From Octopus vulgaris (taxonomy: Eukaryota), in assembly GCA_951406725.2 (NCBI GenBank), contig OX597827.1, positions 84,678,435 through 84,742,434 on the forward strand: a stretch of 64,000 bases of DNA. Reading direction: 5' to 3'. The notes under the pieces were generated by a model. That model ran no database searches and was not told the origin of the DNA. It saw nothing but the letters and a program-made list of their open reading frames with translations. Numbering within the stretch: position 1 is the first letter of the stretch; each line of letters starts with the position of its first letter. Both the position numbers and the translations under genes were made by a program. Positions 6,162 through 56,193 of the stretch are shown piece by piece.

Positions 6162-6433
6162 AGGCACAGGAGTGTTGTGTGGTAAGACGCTTGCTTACCA
6201 ACCACATGGGCAAGTGTCTCCTACTATAGCCTCATGCTGACCAAAACCTTGTGAGTGGATTTGGTAGACGGAAGCTGAAAGAAGCCCTTCGTATATAGGT
6301 ATTTGTTTGTGTGTCTGTGTTTGTCCCCCCATCATCGCTTGACAACCAATGTTGGTGAGTTTACGTCGCTGTAACTTAGCGGTTCGGCAAAAGAGGTCGA
6401 GCGAATAAGTACTAGGCTTACAAAGAATAAGTC
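6162..6433 (+). mobile_element. tRNA-derived SINE (type 1), internally deleted and 3'-truncated
   Basis: Colinear with 11520-11925 (TGTGTGGTAAG, CCTTGTGAGTGGA.TTGGTAGACGGAA.CTGAAAGAAGCCC, GAATAAGTACTAGGCTTACAAAGAATA). Confidence 0.8.
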
Positions 6434-11519: not shown

Positions 11520-11673
11520 ATATATTGTGTGGTAAGAAGCTTGCTAGCCAACCACATGGTTCCGGGGTCAGTCCCACTGCGTGGCTCCTTCGGAAAGTGT
11601 CTTCTACTATAGTCTCGGATCGACCAAAGCCTTGTGAGTGGAATTGGTAGACGGAAACTGAAAGAAGCCCGTC

Positions 11674-11729
<56 letters not shown>

Positions 11730-11925
11730 ATCTGTGTTTGTCCCTCCATCATCGCTTGACTACCGATGTTGGTGTGTGTACGTCCCCGCAACTTAGTGGT
11801 TCGGCAAAAGAGACTGACAGAATAAGTACTAGGCTTACAAAGAATACGCCTTGGGATCGATTTGTTTGACTAAAGGCGGTGCTCCAGCATGGCCGCAGTC
11901 AAATGACTGAAACAGATAAGAGTAT
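11520..11925 (+). mobile_element. tRNA-derived SINE (type 1) with internal (TA)n/(TG)n and family-C-like LINE tail
   Basis: Partial A box TGTGTGGTAAG and B-box-like GGGTCAGTCCC; internal TA 11675-11720; ends GGCGGTGCTCCAGCATGGCCG-CAGTC-AAAT-GACTG-AAACAGATAAGAG followed by TA. Confidence 0.85.
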
Positions 11926-12051: not shown

Positions 12052-13025
12052 AATATTCTTTTCTACCCTAGGCACAAGGCCCGAAATTTGGGGGAGGGGG
12101 CCAGTCAATTAGATCGACCACAGTACACAACTGGTGTTTAATTTGTCGACCCCGAAAGGATGAAAGGCAAAGTCGACCTCGGCGGAATTTGAACTCAGAA
12201 CGTACAGACAGACGAAATACCTATTTCTTTACTACCCAGAAAGGGGCTAAACACAGAGACCTCAAACAAGGACCGACAAACGGATTATCGACCCCAGTGC
12301 TTAACTGGTACTTATTTAATCGACCCTGAAAAGATGAAAGGCAAAGTCAACCTCGGCGGAATTTGAACTCAGAACGTAGCGACAGACGAAATACCTATTT
12401 CTTTATTACCCACAAGGGGCTAAACACAGAGGGGGCAAACAAGGACAGACATAGGTATTAAGTCGATTACATCGACCCCAGTGCGTAACTGGTACTTAAT
12501 TTATCGACCCCGAAAGGATGAAAGGCAAAGTCGACCTCGGCGGAATTTGAACTCAGAACGTAGCGGCAGACGAAATACCGCTAAGCAGTTCGTCCGGCGC
12601 GCTAACGTTTCTGCCAGCTTACCGCCTTTCGACAGACGAAATACCGCTAAGCAGTTCGTCCGGCGCGCTAACGTTTCTGCCAGCTCACCGCCTTTCGACA
12701 GACGAAATACCGCTAAGCAGTTCGTCCGGCGCGCTAACGTTTCTGCCAGCTCACCGCCTTTCGACAGACGAAATACCGCTAAGCAGTTCGTCCGGCGCGC
12801 TAACGTTTCTGCCAGCTCACCGCCTTTCGACAGACGAAATACCGCTAAGCAGTTCGTCCGGCGCGCTAACGTTTCTGCCAGCTCACCGCCTTTCGACAGA
12901 CGAAATACCGCTAAGCAGTTCGTCCGGCGCGCTAACGTTTCTGCCAGCTCACCGCCTTTCGACAGACGAAATACCGCTAAGCATTTCGCCCGGCGTCCTA
13001 ACGTTTCTTCCTGCTCGCCGCCTTA
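12052..13025 (-). mobile_element. Nested cluster of tRNA-derived SINEs (type 2): three bodies, seven heads
   Basis: Minus strand has A box TGGCAGAAACGTTAG and B box GAGTTCAAATTCC. The body GAGGTCGACTTTGCCTTTCATCCTTTCGGGGTCGA occurs three times (~12145-12200, ~12320-12375, ~12505-12560). Confidence 0.88.
12564..13025. repeat. 66-bp tandem repeat (7 units) of the SINE 5' head
   Basis: Unit GACAGACGAAATACCGCTAAGCAGTTCGTCCGGCGCGCTAACGTTTCTGCCAGCTCACCGCCTTTC; seen as 22-aa periodicity in ORF 12481-13026. Confidence 0.95.
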
Positions 13026-15279: not shown

Positions 15280-16460
15280 AACAACCGCTAATATGGTTTC
15301 CGTAAAGCCAGATCCACTGCTGACCAACTCCATTTAGTCACTCACCAGTGGACCTTTAAGTAATTTGTCAACGACAGCAAAGATTGTGTGGCAGGGAAAT
15401 CTGCTGTCGAAACTACCCGCCCACGGCCTTCACCCACCCATGGCCTTCACCCGCCCACGGCCTTCACCCGCCCACGGCCTTCACCCACCCATGGCCTTCA
15501 CCCGCCCACGGCCTTCACCCACCCCCGGCCTTCACCCGCCCACGGCCTTCACCCACCCACGGCCTTCACCCGCCCACGGCCTTCACCCACCCACGGCCTT
15601 CACCCGCCCACGGCCTTCACCCACCCACGGCCTTCACCCACACATGGCCTTCACCCGCCCACGGCCTTCACCCGCCCACGGCCTTCACCCACCCACGGCC
15701 TTCACCCGCCTACGGACTCACCCGCCTATGGACTCCACCATCCTGTGGATTCCATCCACCTGTGGGCTCCACCAACTTAAGGATTTCACCTACCTGTCGG
15801 CTCCTCCAGCCTATGGACCCTACCCTCATGTGGGCTTCAGCCACCTATGGACTCCAGCTACTTATAGGCTCCACCCACCTATCGGTTCCACCCGCCTGTG
15901 GGCTCCATCCACAATCGCCTAACAGATCACACACACTGGGACTTCTTTCTGCCCCATTATTCTATCGACCTCGATATGCCCAGGGTACGGTATTGTACCC
16001 CAGTCTTTTCCTTCTATACATCAATAACTTATTTACCCTTCGTCCAACAATGACCACTTTTACACAGACGATACAACTCTTCATTCTTCCCTAACATTCC
16101 CCAACTACGCATCAGTCACTCGCATCCTTAATCGAGACCCCAAACTGATTGCATGAGCAGATACCTCGAAAGCATCCTCCAATGTGGTTATGTCAATTTC
16201 GTCTTTTTTAATAGCAAGAAAACACAAGCGCTACTCATGCCAAGACAACATACTCGCACCATATCCCCACTTAATCATGGGCGGCACGTAACGACATCCA
16301 AATACTGGGCATCACTATCAGCGAGGATTTCCCCTGGTTAAAGCACATTCCTGACTTAACTAGAACTGTCTCCCCAAGGCTGACCCTTCTAATTCCAAAC
16401 AATTATTGATAATCTGCAAATCTCAGGCGAGACCTACAACAGACAATCGCTGGATAATGT
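15280..16460 (+). pseudogene. Highly decayed non-LTR reverse transcriptase remnant
   Basis: Scattered motifs YGFRKARSTADQL (~15292), AQGTVLYPSLFLLYINNL (~15980) and FNSKKTQALL (~16205), with many frameshifts. Confidence 0.65.
15418..15910. repeat. 17-bp C-rich minisatellite (CCCACGGCCTTCACCCR)n
   Basis: Near-identical units 15418-15710, increasingly diverged units to ~15910. Confidence 0.92.
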
Positions 16461-22508: not shown

Positions 22509-22582
<74 letters not shown>

Positions 22583-22646
22583 GCTAGCTAGCTAGCTAGC
22601 TAGCTAGCTATTTATCTGTCTGTCTGTCTGTCTGCCTGCATGTCTG

Positions 22647-22701
<55 letters not shown>

Positions 22702-22775
22702 CTCGGTCTGTCTGTCTATCTATCTCTCGGTCTGTCTGTCTGTCTGTTTATCTATCTATCTATCTATCTATCTCT
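22509..22775. repeat. (TCTA)n/(TCTG)n/(TAGC)n compound tetranucleotide array
   Basis: Directly visible; left flank of the Tx1-like element. Confidence 0.95.
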
Positions 22776-25700
22776 CGGACTTAGATAAGGCACATAGGCA
22801 GGGTCCTGGTTACTGGAAGCTGAACGTGTCTTTCACGGCACGCCAGGCTTACAGGGACCGGATTAGCATATTAATAAAGAGATCTTTGGCGGGTGCCATA
22901 ATCAACAACAGATGGTGGTATGCCCTAAAGAAAGCAATTAAAGCAGAATCGGTTAGGTACAGTAAGGCCCTAGCATTATACCGAAATAGAATAGAGGGAG
23001 ACTTAGTTAAGAATTTAGAAGAGGCACTTAAAACTGGCATCGCATCCAACGTACTGGCAGCGAGGTTGGCCCTCGACCAACACCTCAACTCCAAACACGA
23101 AGGATGCGTTGTCAGAGCTAGGATGCGTGCTCTGAGGAACGAAGGAGTTGAAGCCGCCCGAGGGGCCCGAGTGGTGGAGACGCAACGAGGCAACAGAGCC
23201 ACCATCAGGTCATTTACATATGGACAGGGGCGCGAATTACTCGAGCCTGAAAGGATGTGTGAGGCTTTTAAGCAACACTTTACCCAACTGCTTGGGACAA
23301 GTGGTGGGTCAGAACGCAGAGTGGACTTTAGTGCCTACCTGCATGCCCTGCCACGACTCTCAGCAAGAGAGGTGGAGTGTTGTGAAAAAACCCATCACAG
23401 CCGCGGACGTACGGGATGCGATGGCAGGCTGCGCGAGAGACAAGTCACCAGGCTTGGATGGTCTGCCCTACGAACTTTATTATCATATGCCAGACTTGTT
23501 TAGAGGCGTCTTGGCAGCTGTCTACTGCAACTGGCAGCAAAACGGGAGTATCCCTGCCTTTGTAATGCAAGGAGCAGTGGCACTGCTAAAGAAAGATCCA
23601 AACAAGGGGGACGTCATAGATAATTTCAGGCCCATCACTGCTCAACGCAGATTTGAAAATTTTGGCCAAGGTGTTAGCCGAGAGGTTGGCGCTTGTCATC
23701 GAGAAACTAGTCGACAAGGGGCAAACGTGCGCCGTGTCGGGTAGGAGTAACCATGACAACCTCCATCATATGCGCTACATCATAGACAGGGTAGTTAAGG
23801 ATCCTGGTATGGGTGGGGCGCTGATCAATTTGGATCAATCAAAAGCCTTCGATAGGGTAGACCATCACTACTTGGAGGCTGTCTTTAAAGCGGCTGGTTT
23901 CTGTCCCATCTTCCGCGGTTGGATCGCTGCCTTATACTGCGGCATCCGCTCGGTAGTTCGCGTAAATGGTCATCTCTCCAGACCTTTTAACATCATGCGT
24001 TCGGTTCGTCAAGGATGCCTCCTCTCATCGCTTCTGTATGTATTGACTCTTGAGCCACTACTGCGGAAACTGGCGATGCTGAGGGGCATCCCACGAGAGC
24101 TGGGATGCGGGAGGAGCGTGTCTGCATACGCGGACGACGTCACCATCATAGTGTCGAGCTACAAGCACATCAACCTGGTCAGCGAGATACTAAAAGAATA
24201 CGAAGCGGTAACGGGAGCAAAAATTAACCGGGAAAAGTCAGTTGGCTTGCGGCTCGGCACCTGGAGAAGCAAGCCCATGCCGTCCAACAGCGTCCCCATC
24301 GTGGAACACTAGACCGACGGACCGGTTAAATAGCTCGGAGTCTGGTTCGGTCCGGACCTCCAAATGGAGAAGAACTGGGGCGAAATAACGACTAGGGTGG
24401 CCACTCTCACCCAGCAATGGGCTGAGAGGAAGTTATCCCTAAAAGGTCGGGCGGAGGTGGCGAACGCGTACATCGCATCCGTCATCGAGTACCGCCTGAC
24501 CGTCGTGCCTTGTCCCGACCCTACCATCACCAAACTGGAACGCATACTCTTCCGCTTCCTGTAGAAGGGTAGCGTTCCGATGGTTAGGCAATCCATTTGC
24601 TGTCAACACCCGCTAAATTAAGGGCTAGGCATGCCGTGGTTGATGATACGCAGACATGCGCTGAGACTGCGACATCTCCGGCGCTTCATAGACGATGGTG
24701 AACAGGTGTGGTCGCCTTTTGTGCGATGCACTTTCCCGAAGCTCCTCTCCTTGGCCGAACTACAATCGTGGATCAGAGACCGAGGCTAGGCGAATGGCAC
24801 CGCGAGTGTCGCGTTGCTCTCAAGCAACTCTGCCGTCCGGACCAAATTTATGCGATTTCATTACAACAAAGGCGTTCTATAGAGGATTAGTGGAGGGGAG
24901 GTGCGACGACGTTCTCGGGCAGAATCTGGGCGACGACGAGAGACACCTGATCCGCCTGTTCAGGACAACTTTCAGGCCGGGACCTGTGGACAATCACCAA
25001 AGATCTCTGGCCTGGCAGTGCTATCGAGAAGCATTACCTGTTCGGGATAAGCTCTACAGGCACGGTTCGAGACACATTGGACCGACTTGCTCGTCATGCG
25101 GTCAGAGCGACGAAACCGTTCTGCACGCACTCGTGCAGTGTCCATCCATTTCGGACCTGTGGGCTTATGCCTAACGGCTGCTGTCACGTGTGGGACGAGT
25201 CCGCCTGTCGACCGAGTCTATCGTGAAAATTGCACCGCATCCTTCCCTCAACCGGGAAGGCAAGGCAGTTTTTATCGTACTGGTGGCTATGGTGAAAGAA
25301 TGTGCGTGGTGGACTCGAGCGAAAGGATTAGAGACAAACACTTACCTCTCTGGCCAACGTCATCAACTTTTTCAAGTACCACTTGAAAAGGAAGGTGAGA
25401 ATGGAAAGGCAGGTTTTGTCTCGTGAAAGTTTCAAAAAAAGGTGGGTGAATGTAGCAAAGATGGTGCGTGCAAGTGACGAAACCACTTTGAGCATGAGTC
25501 TGTAAATCGTAAAAGAGAGAGAGAGAGAGCACATTGCTCTCATGTGTTTATTTCCTCCCTGTCTGAGGTTACCGTGGTCTTTTCTGTAGGCTTTTCTTTC
25601 CACGGATGAACCTAATTTTGTTTGTTACTTTGAAAAAAAAATTTCTTTCTGTGATACACGATCCCTTTTGATCGCTTTTTTTCCTTCCGATCCCTTTTGA

Positions 25701-25819
25701 TCAAAATTTTACATTTGTTTCCTTTTTTTCTTCTTTTTCCTTTTCCATCTCCGAAAAGAAAAGCTCTACATTTGTAATTGTCCCCTCTGTGTCCAGCCCT
25801 GTGTGGCCAATAAAGAAAG
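22776..25819 (+). mobile_element. Tx1/L1-clade LINE, 5'-truncated, disrupted ORF2
   Basis: GPGYWKLN, KSPGLDGLPYELY, LDQSKAFDRVDH, VRQGC, AYADDVT and C-terminal CCHC (CSSCGQSDETVLHALVQC). T-rich 3' UTR ends in AATAAAGAAA. Confidence 0.92.
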
Positions 25820-25822
25820 TTA

Positions 25823-25879
<57 letters not shown>

Positions 25880-52221: not shown

Positions 52222-53175
52222 ATGGACAACATGCAAAAATTAGAGGTGAATGCAAACACTGGCGTCAACAAAAGCCAGCGTAACTGGACGAAAGTAGAGC
52301 TGGAAGTTTTCATCAGAGGATGGAGCTCGGCCGACAGATCGCAACCAACTAAAAACATAGCGGCGACCCTGAAAAGCCATGGCTTTATGAGGACGTTGGC
52401 GCAAGTAGAGAGGAAGAAAAGAGAAGTCGAAAGGGCCTACACTCTCATTGCACCACACATGGCTTTGCTAAGCCAAGTCCTCAAGGTGGACAAAGACAAA
52501 GAGAGAGAGATGGAAACAGGAAACACCAACCACAGAGTGTCAAAAAATGACACGCCCACTGCCACAGTCGAAGAAGGCAAGCAGGGCAAACAACAGATAG
52601 GCGGCGATGGGGAAACGGAAAATAACCACCCGGATGAAAATACCTATGCAGAAAGGAACCAGTGGACAACCGTCCAACGGAGGAAGAAAAAACAGAGAGG
52701 AACTGGGGACAAGAAAACCCAGATAACATGCAAATTCTTCCGGAATGGAACCTGCTGGCATGGAGAAACAGGGGAAGGATGCAGGTTCGCTCATCCCAGG
52801 CCCTATGGAAATTGCATCAAACCCACTCGACCAAAATGCCTTAACCAAAACCAAGACCGAAACCAAAACCAGAACAAATACAAGCTGCCCCAGAAATATG
52901 CAGACATAGTGCGTAATGCCCCAACAAGGAGAAGGCGCACATTTGCAGAGGAAATGCAGACGGCGGCAGCAGAACAAAGAAATTTTGTGGAAATAGCAGA
53001 GAAAATTGTGGGACAACTGGCCTGGATACATCGTCTTCAGAGCCAGGGGCACTCACAACAGCACTCAAGACCACCACAATCAAGGGACCCAGGGTGGCCA
53101 CCGCTGACACCAGCCCAGGTGCCACACCGTCAGCCTTTATTGACACCCCAAATATCTCACCAGTGCTTCTGCTGA
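52222..53175 (+). CDS. LINE ORF1: Myb/SANT(trihelix)-like N-terminal domain + CCCH zinc finger
   Basis: 317-aa ATG-initiated ORF. RNWTKVELEVFIRGW..IAATLKSHGFMRTLAQVERKKREVERAY fits the trihelix pattern; [22 protein letters not shown] is C-x7-C-x8-C-x3-H. Confidence 0.8.
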   Translation: MDNMQKLEVNANTGVNKSQRNWTKVELEVFIRGWSSADRSQPTKNIAATLKSHGFMRTLAQVERKKREVERAYTLIAPHMALLSQVLKVDKDKEREMETGNTNHRVSKNDTPTATVEEGKQGKQQIGGDGETENNHPDENTYAERNQWTTVQRRKKKQRGTGDKKTQITCKFFRNGTCWHGETGEGCRFAHPRPYGNCIKPTRPKCLNQNQDRNQNQNKYKLPQKYADIVRNAPTRRRRTFAEEMQTAAAEQRNFVEIAEKIVGQLAWIHRLQSQGHSQQHSRPPQSRDPGWPPLTPAQVPHRQPLLTPQISHQCFC

Positions 53176-56116
53176 ATGTCAGAGGTCTGGTGAAACCCAC
53201 TAATATGGGTAAAATTCCTTACCTTAGGGACTTAAGCACAAGCAACCATGCAATATGCATAGCGCTGACTGAAACGCACCTGTCAAGCAGTATAGCAGAT
53301 GCAGAAATACACATACCAAAGTATACTGTTTTTCGGTCAGACAGGAAGGAAAGAACTCATGGTGGGGTTGCCCTGTACGTCCGTGAAGATGTCACACCCA
53401 TAGTACTGTTGACACACTCAAACTCAGTCTGTGACACACTGATAGTACACATGAAACAACCGAAAATAGTAATATGTGTCACATATCGGCCACCAGACAC
53501 CCCTAGTCATGAAGGAGTGTTTGAAGATAGCCTCAGAAGAATAGAAGAAGTCCTGGACAAACTGGACCAGGGTAACACCATTCTACTGCTGGGAGATTTT
53601 AACCTTCCGAAAGTCAAATGGCCAGATGGCCATCTCCTCCCTGGAATGACATCACTTGAACAGAGACAGACAGAGTCCTTGTTGGCTCTCACACGCAAGT
53701 TTTTCATGGAACAAGCAGTGCTTCGGCCAACAAGAGGTGAGAATGTCTTGGACCTCTGTTTCACAAGCAACCCGATGCTCATCCACAACATAATGGTAAC
53801 ACCAACAATTCTCTCAGATCACAACTTAGTAGAGGTAATGATATATGGTATGAGAGAGTTAGTTGAGACGCAGCCATTAGAAAATACCACAGGCCTATCC
53901 AGTCTAAACTTCCATAAGGCAAACTGGAAGAAGATCAACGAAGAGATCCGAAAACATGACTGGAGTGACTTCATCACCACACAAGACACCAACACACATT
54001 TCCAACATTTCATGACAACAATACAGAACATATGCCATAAGTTTGTCCCGGAGAAAAAAGCCAGCGGGCATAGGAACGTTATTCCCAGAGACAGGAAAAT
54101 ACTTATGAGGCGAAGAGCTAAGCTCTCGAAGCAACTGAATGCACGGCAGAGAAACAATGAGGGACTCCACCTGAAACTTTTTGAAACGGAAACTGCACTC
54201 AAACTTTCCTATGAGAAGGAGAGGGCAGAGAGAGAAGCCAGGGCCATAGAGAATATTAAAACAAACCCTAAAGCCTTCTTTAAATTTGCGAAAGAAACCA
54301 CCTCGGTACACTGCAAGATTGGCCCACTCTTTGATAAAAAGGGCTCTCTAACTGAGGACCCCCAAGGGATAAGTGAAATACTAAAGGAACAGTATAAAAG
54401 TGTGTTCACATCCCCTCTGGGGCACATGCAAATCACAAACCCAGAAGTTTTCTTTGATGCCACAACACTCCAAAACCAAACAACAACCATCGACCACATA
54501 GACATAACAGAGAGGGATGTAATATCTGCCATAGAAGAAATGAGAATAAACTCAGCTGCTGGACCAGATGGATTCCCAGCAGTCCTCCTAAAAACATGCA
54601 GGCATGCCCTAGCGGGACCACTGAAGAAGCTCTTCAGTGGTTCCTTGGCTAACGGTAAACTGCCCAGGGCGCTAAAAGAAGGCACCATATGCCCTATCCA
54701 CAAAGGAGGGAGTAGAGCAGAGGCCAAAAACTACAGGCCAGTCTCCCTGACGTCACACATAAGTAAGGTCATGGAACGAATCATCAGAAAAAAACTGATC
54801 ACGTTCCTCGAAGAAACTAACCGTCTCACTGACACACAGCATGGCTTTCGCCCAGGAAGAAGCTGCCTTACGCAGCTGTTACAACACTACGACTGGGTAC
54901 TGAAACAACTACTGGATCGCTCACAGGTGGATGTGGTATATCTCGACTTTGCGAAGGCCTTTGACAAAGTCGACCACGGAGTGATATGTCACAAATTACT
55001 CAGACTCGGCATAACAGGAAAAGTAGGTGAGTGGATACATGACTTCCTGAAGGACAGAAGCCAGATGGTTGCAGCCAATGGAGCCCTCTCGGGAAAGACA
55101 CCAATAGCAAGCGGGGTGCCACAGGGCACAGTCTTGGGACCCTTGCTGTTTTTGGTGGCGCTCTCTGACATGCCCTTGGTAGCACAAACAACATCCCTCA
55201 CTAGCTATGCTGATGACACAAAGGTAGCACAGGCAATCAAAAACCCAGCTGATGCTGACCTTTTACAACAAGATCTGGATGCCATATACAAATGGGCTGA
55301 AGACAACAACATGCAATTTAATGCTGGTAAATTTCAAGCCTTACAATATCAAGCTGTAAACACATATACATTACAACACAACTATACTGGTCCAGGAGGG
55401 ATCGAAATCCCAGTATCGAAATCAATACGGGACCTGGGGATAGACATGAGTGACGATGCATCTTTTTCTTCACACATCGCGAAGGTGGCGACAATGTGCA
55501 GACGACTCACTGGCTGGATCCTGAGGACATTCCGGACAAGAGACTGCGAGACCATGTTGACACTATGGAGGACATTTGTCCTAAGCCGCCTGGACTACTG
55601 CTCCCAACTGTGGTCACCGCATAGTGTCAAACTAACCACAGAGCTTGAGACAATCCAAAGACATTTCACCAAGAGGATTTCCACCATGAAAGAAAAGAAC
55701 TATTGGGAGAGGCTTAGGGAACTCAATTTGTACTCCTTGGAACGAAGACGAGAGAGATATGCAGTGATATACATATGGAAAATCCTGGAGGGACTAGCAC
55801 CAAATTTTGGAATTGAGAGCTGTTCCAATCCCCGTACAGGACGTCACTGTGTGGTGCCAAAGGTCCCGTCTTCCACATCCAGGGTAAGGAGCAGATACTG
55901 TAATAGCCTGGGGTTCAGGGGCCCTCAGCTTTTCAACAAACTGCCAAGAAAACTAAGAGATCTACATGATGCGGATGTGGACATTTTCAAAAACATCTAG
56001 ACAAGCTGCTTTCCGGGATCCCAGATGAACCCACTGCAAGGTACGAAGGTAACCTAAGGGCAGCAGCTACAAACTCTCTCTTAGATCAGTGGCCAGCCAC
56101 GGCAAACTGGACTTAG
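53094..56116 (+). CDS. LINE ORF2: APE endonuclease + reverse transcriptase (one 1-nt homopolymer frameshift near 55990)
   Basis: [37 protein letters not shown] (APE); [33 protein letters not shown] (RT). Open to 56000; the sister copy has A6 rather than A5, which restores the frame to TAG at 56114-56116. Confidence 0.92.
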
Positions 56117-56193
56117 AGAGGGTAGCAACAAGGGCGGTGCCCCAGCATGGCCTCAGCCGGATGGCTGAAACAAGTAAAAGAGTATATATAAGA

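What the first reader, a model, noticed from the sequence alone, without database searches (positions are those of the whole stretch)
12052..13025. SINE that inserts site-specifically into the head of its own family (Russian-doll SINE)
Seen (minus strand): both internal junctions (~12220 and ~12395) read ..TAAAGAAATA|GGTATTTCGTCTGTC, so each tail is joined to the same position of another SINE head. The tandem heads end in the same GGTATTTCGTCTGTC before the next GAAAGGCGG start, as expected for a ~15-bp target-site duplication. The outermost head (12961-13025) and the last body (12052-12220, different tail) look like the original host SINE. Inference: two nested insertions explain three bodies, and the extra identical 66-bp heads arose by later tandem expansion, stacking seven Pol III A boxes ahead of one B box.
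Basis: partly seen in the sequence, partly recalled or inferred. Interest (0 to 1): 0.7.

Follow-up and report, generated by a model that had tools for sequence, protein, structure and literature searches.

The report
Self-nesting octopus SINE with Tx1 tail
An octopus-type short retroelement forms a nest of seven heads and three bodies joined at one 15-base motif, likely because two copies carrying a Tx1-like retrotransposon's tail were inserted into their own family's head, whose motif resembles the microsatellite flanking that retrotransposon; whether this is a genome-wide habit is untested.

Summary
The array is real: 7 heads, 3 bodies and nine copies of a 15-nt motif X. New here: the tails of the two inner bodies match the 3' end of a Tx1-like LINE 13 kb away. 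That LINE sits in a (TATC/TGTC)n microsatellite, and its 3' flank resembles X (45 of 125,738 positions score as well). In the window, 3 of 3 Tx1-type tails and 0 of 3 other tails have this flank. Body 2 shares three diagnostic sites with an unlinked copy that body 1 lacks, which argues against local duplication. Best reading: two independent Tx1-driven insertions at X with a 15-16-nt duplication, then recent tandem expansion of one head. Corrections: six consensus A boxes, three B boxes, and one insertion may have been truncated at X. Genome-wide specificity is untested: 0 of 15 SINE-derived database ORFs show the tail|X junction, and one suggests a second site about 33 nt upstream. A propagating composite master remains a rival. 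Closest precedent: Tx1-mobilised SINEU-3. New variant of a known kind; interest 0.5.

The parts
12976..13024 (-). H0, outer (host) SINE head; A box degenerate
   Evidence: 9 of 66 differences to inner heads; no TRGYNNANNNG match
12961..12975 (-). X, left copy of the 15-nt motif (inferred left target-site duplication); 3' arm of a predicted 12-bp hairpin in H0
12631..12960 (-). five identical 66-bp units (head + X), inferred recent tandem expansion
   Evidence: 0 differences among the five
12565..12630 (-). H6, head of the full-length inner SINE with its own X variant; A box at 12616
   Evidence: 2 differences to the other inner heads
12396..12564 (-). B1 body (B box 12552) ending in a Tx1-type tail (12439-12398)
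12381..12395 (-). X at the B1-tail junction
12222..12380 (-). B2 body (B box 12368; T4 run at 12332) with a Tx1-type tail; different source lineage from B1
12207..12221 (-). X at the B2-tail junction (inferred right target-site duplication)
12053..12206 (-). B3 body (B box 12194) with a different, non-Tx1 tail; inferred host body
22778..25818 (+). 5'-truncated, frame-disrupted Tx1-like LINE (RT, zf-RVT); its last 42 nt (25777-25818) are homologous to the B1/B2 tail
25819..26135 (+). (TCTG/TATC)n microsatellite forming the LINE's 3' flank; its first bases resemble X
22509..22773 (+). (TATC/TGTC)n microsatellite forming the LINE's 5' flank
32010..32224 (+). unlinked, un-nested copy of the same SINE family with a third tail type and a variant X region; used as comparison

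Best explanation
Two SINE bodies with a tail homologous to the 3' end of a Tx1-like LINE are joined at the same 15-nt motif X inside a host SINE of their own family, likely because a Tx1-type endonuclease/reverse transcriptase cut X as a mimic of its presumed microsatellite target and inserted them in two separate events, after which one head likely expanded in tandem. Shown: the anatomy, the tail homology, the similarity of X to the LINE's flank, and the separate lineages of B1 and B2. Inferred order: (1) host H0-X-B3. (2) B2 is target-primed at X and probably joined at its 5' end by homology within X, so it adds a body without a new head; a full-length insertion whose head was near-identical to the next one is not excluded. 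(3) A full-length copy H-X'-B1 enters X with a 15-16-nt duplication. (4) The unit 'duplicated X + head', bounded by direct repeats, expands to six by slippage or unequal exchange. Each insertion carries or duplicates X, so the site is regenerated. Only H6's A box lies at a usual distance from a B box (64 nt; the others 130 nt or more), so the extra heads probably add little to Pol III transcription (established A-B spacing, recalled; untested).
For: Tail homology: local score 48 against a maximum of 34 in 100 shuffles; nhmmer E 0.0024 from the LINE side and 1.9e-5 from the SINE side. The LINE has RVT_1 and zf-RVT. Its best named relatives are cephalopod RTs (Argonauta 65%, Acanthosepion 55%), with 'Transposon TX1 149 kDa' at 41% and YTX2 at 39% further down. 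LINE 3' flank against the SINE junction: 45 of 125,738 window positions score as high. Census: 3 of 3 Tx1-type tails and 0 of 3 other tails have the X-like flank. B2 shares alignment columns 69, 78 and 81 with the unlinked copy at 32055, while B1 groups with B3 there. Two random hits at one nucleotide are expected in at most 0.024 loci per genome under assumed copy numbers. Precedent: Tx1 families target microsatellites and transposons, and Tx1-mobilised SINEU-3 has a 16-bp TSD and forms tandem insertions around it (PMC4494074). P0127 suggests another Tx1-tail-into-head junction at a different locus.
Against: One locus and one LINE copy only; two of the three Tx1-type tails counted are the array itself. 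The LINE is a relative, not necessarily the partner (tails differ at several positions); its endonuclease is missing and its own TSD cannot be read in the microsatellite. 0 of 15 SINE-derived database ORFs show the exact tail|X junction, though only 3 carry the Tx1-type tail and only 1 of those has a readable 3' flank. P0127's junction lies about 33 nt upstream of X. P0126 has a Tx1-type tail, but its head is not preceded by X. The scoring scheme was chosen after seeing the match. No empty site could be examined.
Confidence: 0.6

Rival explanations
1. Composite master: one or a few founder self-insertions made a multi-body SINE that Pol III reads through and that retrotransposes as a unit on its last tail. 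The junction is then common by descent, with recombination mixing bodies, and no ongoing site specificity is needed.
For: Only one inner-head lineage. P0126 has a Tx1-type body under a head that is not preceded by X. SINE multimers with complete outer ends and truncated inner units are described in the blood clam (PMC11481361 section 15). A 12-of-15 candidate outer duplication exists but is not significant (39 of 500 shuffles).
Against: B2 holds a T4 run, a possible Pol III stop (its age is unknown). B1 and B2 are different lineages, so two tail|X joins are still needed unless recombination swapped the cores. It does not explain why the free LINE has a similar flank.
Confidence: 0.2
2. RNA-level concatemers: SINE RNA is cut or the RT stops at the hairpin loop just 5' of X, and the RT jumps to the 3' end of another SINE RNA, so bodies are stacked in a single insertion without DNA targeting of X.
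For: X starts exactly after the loop of a predicted 12-bp hairpin in H0. P0127 suggests that the junction position can vary. Template jumping is named as a mechanism for SINEU-2 extensions (PMC4494074).
Against: Head units end at the 3' end of X while bodies begin at its 5' end, an overlap that a staggered cut explains at once and jumping does not. Both internal tails are Tx1-type although the terminal tail is not. The folding z-scores are weak (-0.46 to -1.97).
Confidence: 0.12
3. One insertion followed by simple local tandem duplication of the X+body unit as well as the X+head unit.
For: Both units are bounded by X repeats. The inner heads plainly did duplicate. TSD-mediated expansion of SINE arrays is cited in PMC11481361.
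Against: B1 and B2 differ by 15 substitutions and 12 gap columns over 170 columns beyond X, and B2 shares 3 diagnostic sites with an unlinked copy that B1 lacks; gene conversion would have to be added.
Confidence: 0.05
4. Chance nesting of randomly inserting SINEs, or an assembly artefact.
For: SINEs make up 11.6% of O. vulgaris (PMC13282606), so single nests are expected. The number of identical heads could be mis-assembled, and the window has long (TA)n tracts and a 1,906-nt perfect inverted repeat.
Against: Two hits at one nucleotide are improbable at random. The divergent bodies cannot be a read artefact.
Confidence: 0.03

Closest known systems
SINEU-3 / Tx1-Mar of crocodilians (Kojima 2015, PMC4494074; read parts 1 and 3 of 5 and passages)
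   Same: A SINE inferred to be mobilised by a Tx1 LINE and to share its target; 16-bp TSD; tandem copies sandwiching a TSD; more than one preferred site in the target repeat.
   Different: SINEU has U1/U2 heads and targets another element (Mariner-N4_AMi). Here the head has A/B boxes, the tail itself is LINE-homologous, and the target is the SINE's own family, which gives nesting rather than head-to-tail tandems.
Microsatellite-targeting Tx1 families Kibi (TC)n, Koshi (TTC)n and crocodilian (TTCC)n/(TTTC)n families (as described in PMC4494074; the original 2004 paper not seen)
   Same: The LINE at 22778-25818 lies in a simple-repeat array and has Tx1-named relatives.
   Different: The repeat is (TATC/TGTC)n; one copy only; no phylogeny was made.
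Octopus tRNA-derived SINEs OK, OR1, OR2 (Ohshima and Okada 1994; paper not seen, only reference entries and one-line mentions in PMC4758252 and PMC4824008)
   Same: All 5 hits of the SINE-derived profile are Octopus bimaculoides gene models; tRNA-type A and B boxes.
SINE multimers in Scapharca broughtonii (PMC11481361, section 15 and passages) and SINE-derived satellites of squamates (PMC10702118, passages)
   Same: Tandem arrays made of SINE portions, with TSD-bounded units.
   Different: Those are explained as tandem amplification. Here the bodies are from different lineages and carry a tail other than the host's.
Zepp of Chlorella (insertion into its own copies is recalled; the passages seen in PMC10088271 call it only telomere-associated)
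   Same: Accumulation by insertion into earlier copies (recalled).
   Different: An autonomous, telomere-associated LINE, not a SINE.

Membership tests
tRNA-derived SINE (SINE2) | internal Pol III A and B boxes | tested here: met
   six A-box matches, three GWTCRA B boxes; H6 A-to-B spacing 64 nt
tRNA-derived SINE (SINE2) | recognisable tRNA ancestry of the head | tested here: inconclusive
   ARAGORN 0 genes; no tRNA among 28 Rfam matches at E<=10; the fold pairs the 5' GGCGG with the CCGCC after the B box
tRNA-derived SINE (SINE2) | short (<1 kb), interspersed copies | tested here: met
   unit 235 nt; other copies at 32010 and 28841 and inside O. bimaculoides gene models
tRNA-derived SINE (SINE2) | at least 100 copies per genome; Pol III transcription | not testable with these tools
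   no eukaryotic genome collection or transcript data; criterion from PMC3531059 (passage)
tRNA-derived SINE (SINE2) | 3' tail shared with a partner LINE | tested here: met
   B1/B2 tail matches the LINE 3' end; no LINE partner was identified for the B3 tail
SINEU | U1- or U2-derived head | tested here: not met
   no U1/U2 match in Rfam at E<=10; A/B boxes present. It works like SINEU-3 but is not a SINEU
Tx1-mobilised target-specific SINE | target shared with a Tx1 LINE | tested here: inconclusive
   flank similarity 45 of 125,738 and 3 of 3 against 0 of 3, but one LINE copy and one SINE locus
Tx1-mobilised target-specific SINE | target repeat in more than 20% of flanks (criterion in PMC4494074) | not testable with these tools
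   no genome; the ORF proxy gave one readable 3' flank among 3 Tx1-tailed proteins
Tx1-mobilised target-specific SINE | target-site duplication of about 10-16 nt | tested here: met
   15-16-nt direct repeats at all junctions; no empty site seen
Tx1 clade (LINE at 22778-25818) | ORF2 with RT and C-terminal zinc motif | tested here: met
   RVT_1 E 4.5e-26, zf-RVT E 4.8e-8
Tx1 clade (LINE at 22778-25818) | apurinic-type endonuclease | not testable with these tools
   copy is 5'-truncated (a 1153-aa relative aligns from residue 239); full-length relatives carry PF03372
Tx1 clade (LINE at 22778-25818) | RT phylogeny within Tx1 | not tested
   assignment rests on names of hits at 39-41% identity
Octopus OK/OR1/OR2; CORE-SINE | sequence identity to the family consensus or CORE domain | not testable with these tools
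   no consensus obtainable: no SINEBase supplement; the O. vulgaris supplement has no match to the motif
SINE-derived satellite | tandem repeat of a SINE portion | tested here: met
   66-bp unit, 6.9 copies; a short array only

The most novel reading that the evidence does not exclude
An octopus SINE subfamily captured the 3' end of a microsatellite-targeting Tx1 LINE and so acquired a preference for a microsatellite mimic inside its own family's head. Each insertion regenerates the site, so the family is its own self-renewing safe haven and breeds Russian-doll arrays genome-wide, helping to drive the high SINE content of octopus genomes.
Probability: 0.35. Interest if true: 0.72.

Novelty: new variant of a known kind. 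Interest (0 to 1): 0.5.

Why it matters
Target-specific SINEs are rare, and the described case (SINEU) targets another element. A SINE that targets its own head would be a positive-feedback, harm-avoiding strategy that arose by a simple tail swap. It would give a defined substrate pair (microsatellite and SINE head) for testing Tx1 endonuclease specificity. It would also affect octopus repeat annotation: one O. vulgaris study lists 893 recently active unclassified SINE families (PMC13282606, passage), and nested composites could inflate such counts (inference). If the junction is only inherited from a composite master, the finding is a modest structural note.

Tried and rejected
ARAGORN and Rfam found no tRNA, snRNA or ribozyme family in the array. 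A whole-window repeat search was swamped by (TA)n. A scan of the prokaryotic genome collection for a 24-nt SINE core motif, in the hope of stray host contigs, gave 0 loci. A protein search with the 43-residue junction translation found no candidate, a weak test because of the word filter. The exhaustive search with the 85-residue junction translation gave 12 hits and the profile search 5 (one shared). Of these 16 proteins, 15 match the SINE core; P0124 did not and was dropped. Twelve of the 15 read through X (by eye) and none has a tail directly at X; the queries and ORF calling favour other tail types. An outer TSD around the array (12 of 15) was not significant (39 of 500). Head-versus-body divergence did not reject two full-length insertions (p 0.42 and 0.13). 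Simple body duplication was rejected on diagnostic sites. No consensus of OK/OR1/OR2 could be obtained. Ten literature searches found no report of a SINE targeting its own head; the library lacks most subscription papers, including the 1994 octopus SINE paper and Repbase reports. Viral and metagenome contig collections stayed unchecked. No structure or complex prediction was run.

Full report
Observation. On the minus strand, 13024-12053 is an array built around a 15-nt motif X (GGTATTTCGTCTGTC, one copy with a C at position 14). X occurs nine times here and nowhere else in the window. The order is outer head H0, X, six inner heads each followed by X, then bodies B1, B2 and B3, with X after the tails of B1 and B2. 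Five inner heads are identical, the sixth differs at 2 of 66 positions and H0 at 9. Six heads match the A-box pattern and H0 does not; there are three B boxes.

Identity. The unit is a 235-nt SINE-like element with further copies at 32010-32224 (+) and 28841-29004 (-) and a tail fragment at 29344-29373 (-). All 5 hits of a profile of its antisense translation are Octopus bimaculoides gene models (two more named), so the family is an octopus element. ARAGORN and Rfam do not recognise the head. Whether it is OK, OR1 or OR2 of Ohshima and Okada 1994 could not be tested; that paper was seen only as a reference entry, and supplements that were not available may hold the consensus sequences.

A partner LINE in the window. 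The last 42 nt of B1 and B2 are homologous to 25777-25818 (+): local score 48, with 0 of 100 shuffles reaching it (maximum 34). That stretch is the 3' end of a 5'-truncated, frame-disrupted LINE starting at 22778, with RT and zf-RVT domains. Its best named relatives are cephalopod RTs, with Tx1-named proteins at 39-41% identity; 'Tx1-like' rests on these names, not on a tree. The LINE is embedded in a (TATC/TGTC)n microsatellite on both sides. The alignment of SINE tail and LINE end runs on into the flanks: AGGTATTTCGTCTGTC against AGTTATCT-GTCTGTC. Of 125,738 window positions outside the array, 45 score as well against the SINE junction (scoring chosen after seeing the match). In the window, 3 of 3 Tx1-type tails are followed by this kind of sequence and 0 of 3 tails of the two other types are; two of the three are the array itself. 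Tx1 families are known to target microsatellites and other repeats, and Tx1-mobilised SINEU-3 has a 16-bp TSD and forms tandems around it (PMC4494074, parts 1 and 3 of 5 and passages; also passages of PMC4640811).

Independent origin of the inner bodies. B1 and B2 differ at 6 of 92 core positions, and by 15 substitutions and 12 gap columns beyond X. At three sites B2 agrees with the unlinked copy at 32055 while B1 agrees with B3; at two others B1 and B2 agree. Local duplication does not produce the first pattern without added gene conversion. Two random insertions at one nucleotide are expected in at most 0.024 loci per genome under assumed copy numbers of up to 5e5 inserts and 1e6 targets.

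Reconstruction (inferred). Heads end at the 3' end of X and bodies begin at its 5' end, as a 15-16-nt staggered cut would give. The H0 junction matches the start of B2 over 16 nt and of B3 over 15, and only one inner-head lineage is present. The simplest history is: host H0-X-B3; insertion of B2, probably joined by homology within X; full-length insertion of H-X'-B1; recent tandem expansion of the X+head unit, which keeps the left-duplication variant in every unit as observed. X is also the 3' arm of a predicted 12-bp hairpin in H0, with weak folding z-scores; this may help cleavage or may point to an RNA-level route. Three database ORFs with the B3-type tail and a readable head (P0122, P0123, P0136) have H0-like heads, and P0126, with a Tx1-type tail, shares one inner-head variant (by eye). 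This fits H0 and B3 being the host but is weak evidence.

Evidence from other loci. No eukaryotic genome could be searched; the prokaryotic scan was empty, and viral and metagenome contigs stayed unchecked. As a proxy, 16 database proteins were examined, of which 15 are SINE-derived. None shows the tail|X junction. Only three carry the Tx1-type tail. P0135 has no readable flank. P0126 has a head that is not preceded by X. P0127 (unnamed, diverged) reads as a Tx1 tail joined to a head about 33 nt upstream of X; 35 of 5,000 random 8-mers match the head as well as its linker does. This favours insertion into heads as a recurring event but argues against a single strict site. SINEU and Tx1-Mar also use two unrelated sites in their target (PMC4494074).

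Rivals. Multimers of similar layout are described in a clam (PMC11481361, section 15). A T4 run in B2 and the LINE-flank similarity weigh against this rival. Template jumping at the hairpin loop explains stacked bodies but not X-bounded heads. Simple duplication and chance are unlikely.

Comparison and novelty. It works like SINEU-3/Tx1-Mar but is not a SINEU. The head expansion is an ordinary SINE-derived tandem repeat (PMC10702118, passages). Ten literature searches found no SINE that targets its own head, but the 1994 octopus paper and Repbase were out of reach. Other papers were seen as passages only: PMC3531059, PMC10886601, PMC4758252, PMC4824008, PMC13282606 (plus a supplement search) and PMC10088271. 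Self-insertion of Zepp and the usual A-B box spacing are recalled.

Verdict. A real nested SINE with good locus-level support for two Tx1-driven insertions at one site (0.6). Genome-wide self-targeting is plausible but untested (0.35). New variant of a known kind; interest 0.5.

Noticed in passing
window 11560-11915 (+): A second SINE-like family next to the array (another copy at 6209-6429). Its last 43 nt match 864-905, 2419-2460, 43975-44017, 47614-47655 and 56130-56172, which lie at or near the ends of copies of another LINE family: a likely second SINE-LINE tail pair.
   Followed up: partly
window 36874-63578: Several copies of an endonuclease-RT LINE, one with an open 1027-aa ORF2 at 52917-56000, are each bordered by very long (TA)n tracts, suggesting a TA-microsatellite preference.
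   Followed up: no
window 44514-46419 and 53732-55637: A 1,906-nt, 100% complementary inverted pair of LINE sequence: very recent copies or an assembly artefact.
   Followed up: no
window 12440-12452 and 12268-12280 (-): A GTCTGTC-like motif also lies just upstream of the LINE-derived tail in B1 and B2, so the tail may have been captured by a truncated Tx1 insertion at a similar target (speculation).
   Followed up: no
window 32010-32224 (+): A third tail type on the same SINE core; this copy's X region lacks the GTCTGTC motif and is not invaded.
   Followed up: partly
protein P0123 (O. bimaculoides XP_052828027.1): Reads as a B3-type tail joined directly to the 5' start of another head, so head-to-tail tandems of this family also occur.
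   Followed up: no
proteins P0122, P0134, P0136, P0137: O. bimaculoides gene models include antisense SINE translations as exons, which may be annotation artefacts or exonisation.
   Followed up: no
window 15415-15912: A 17-bp GC-rich minisatellite, 18-28 copies.
   Followed up: no
window 34899-35456 (-): An ORF that by eye resembles the protease-RT region of an LTR retrotransposon.
   Followed up: no
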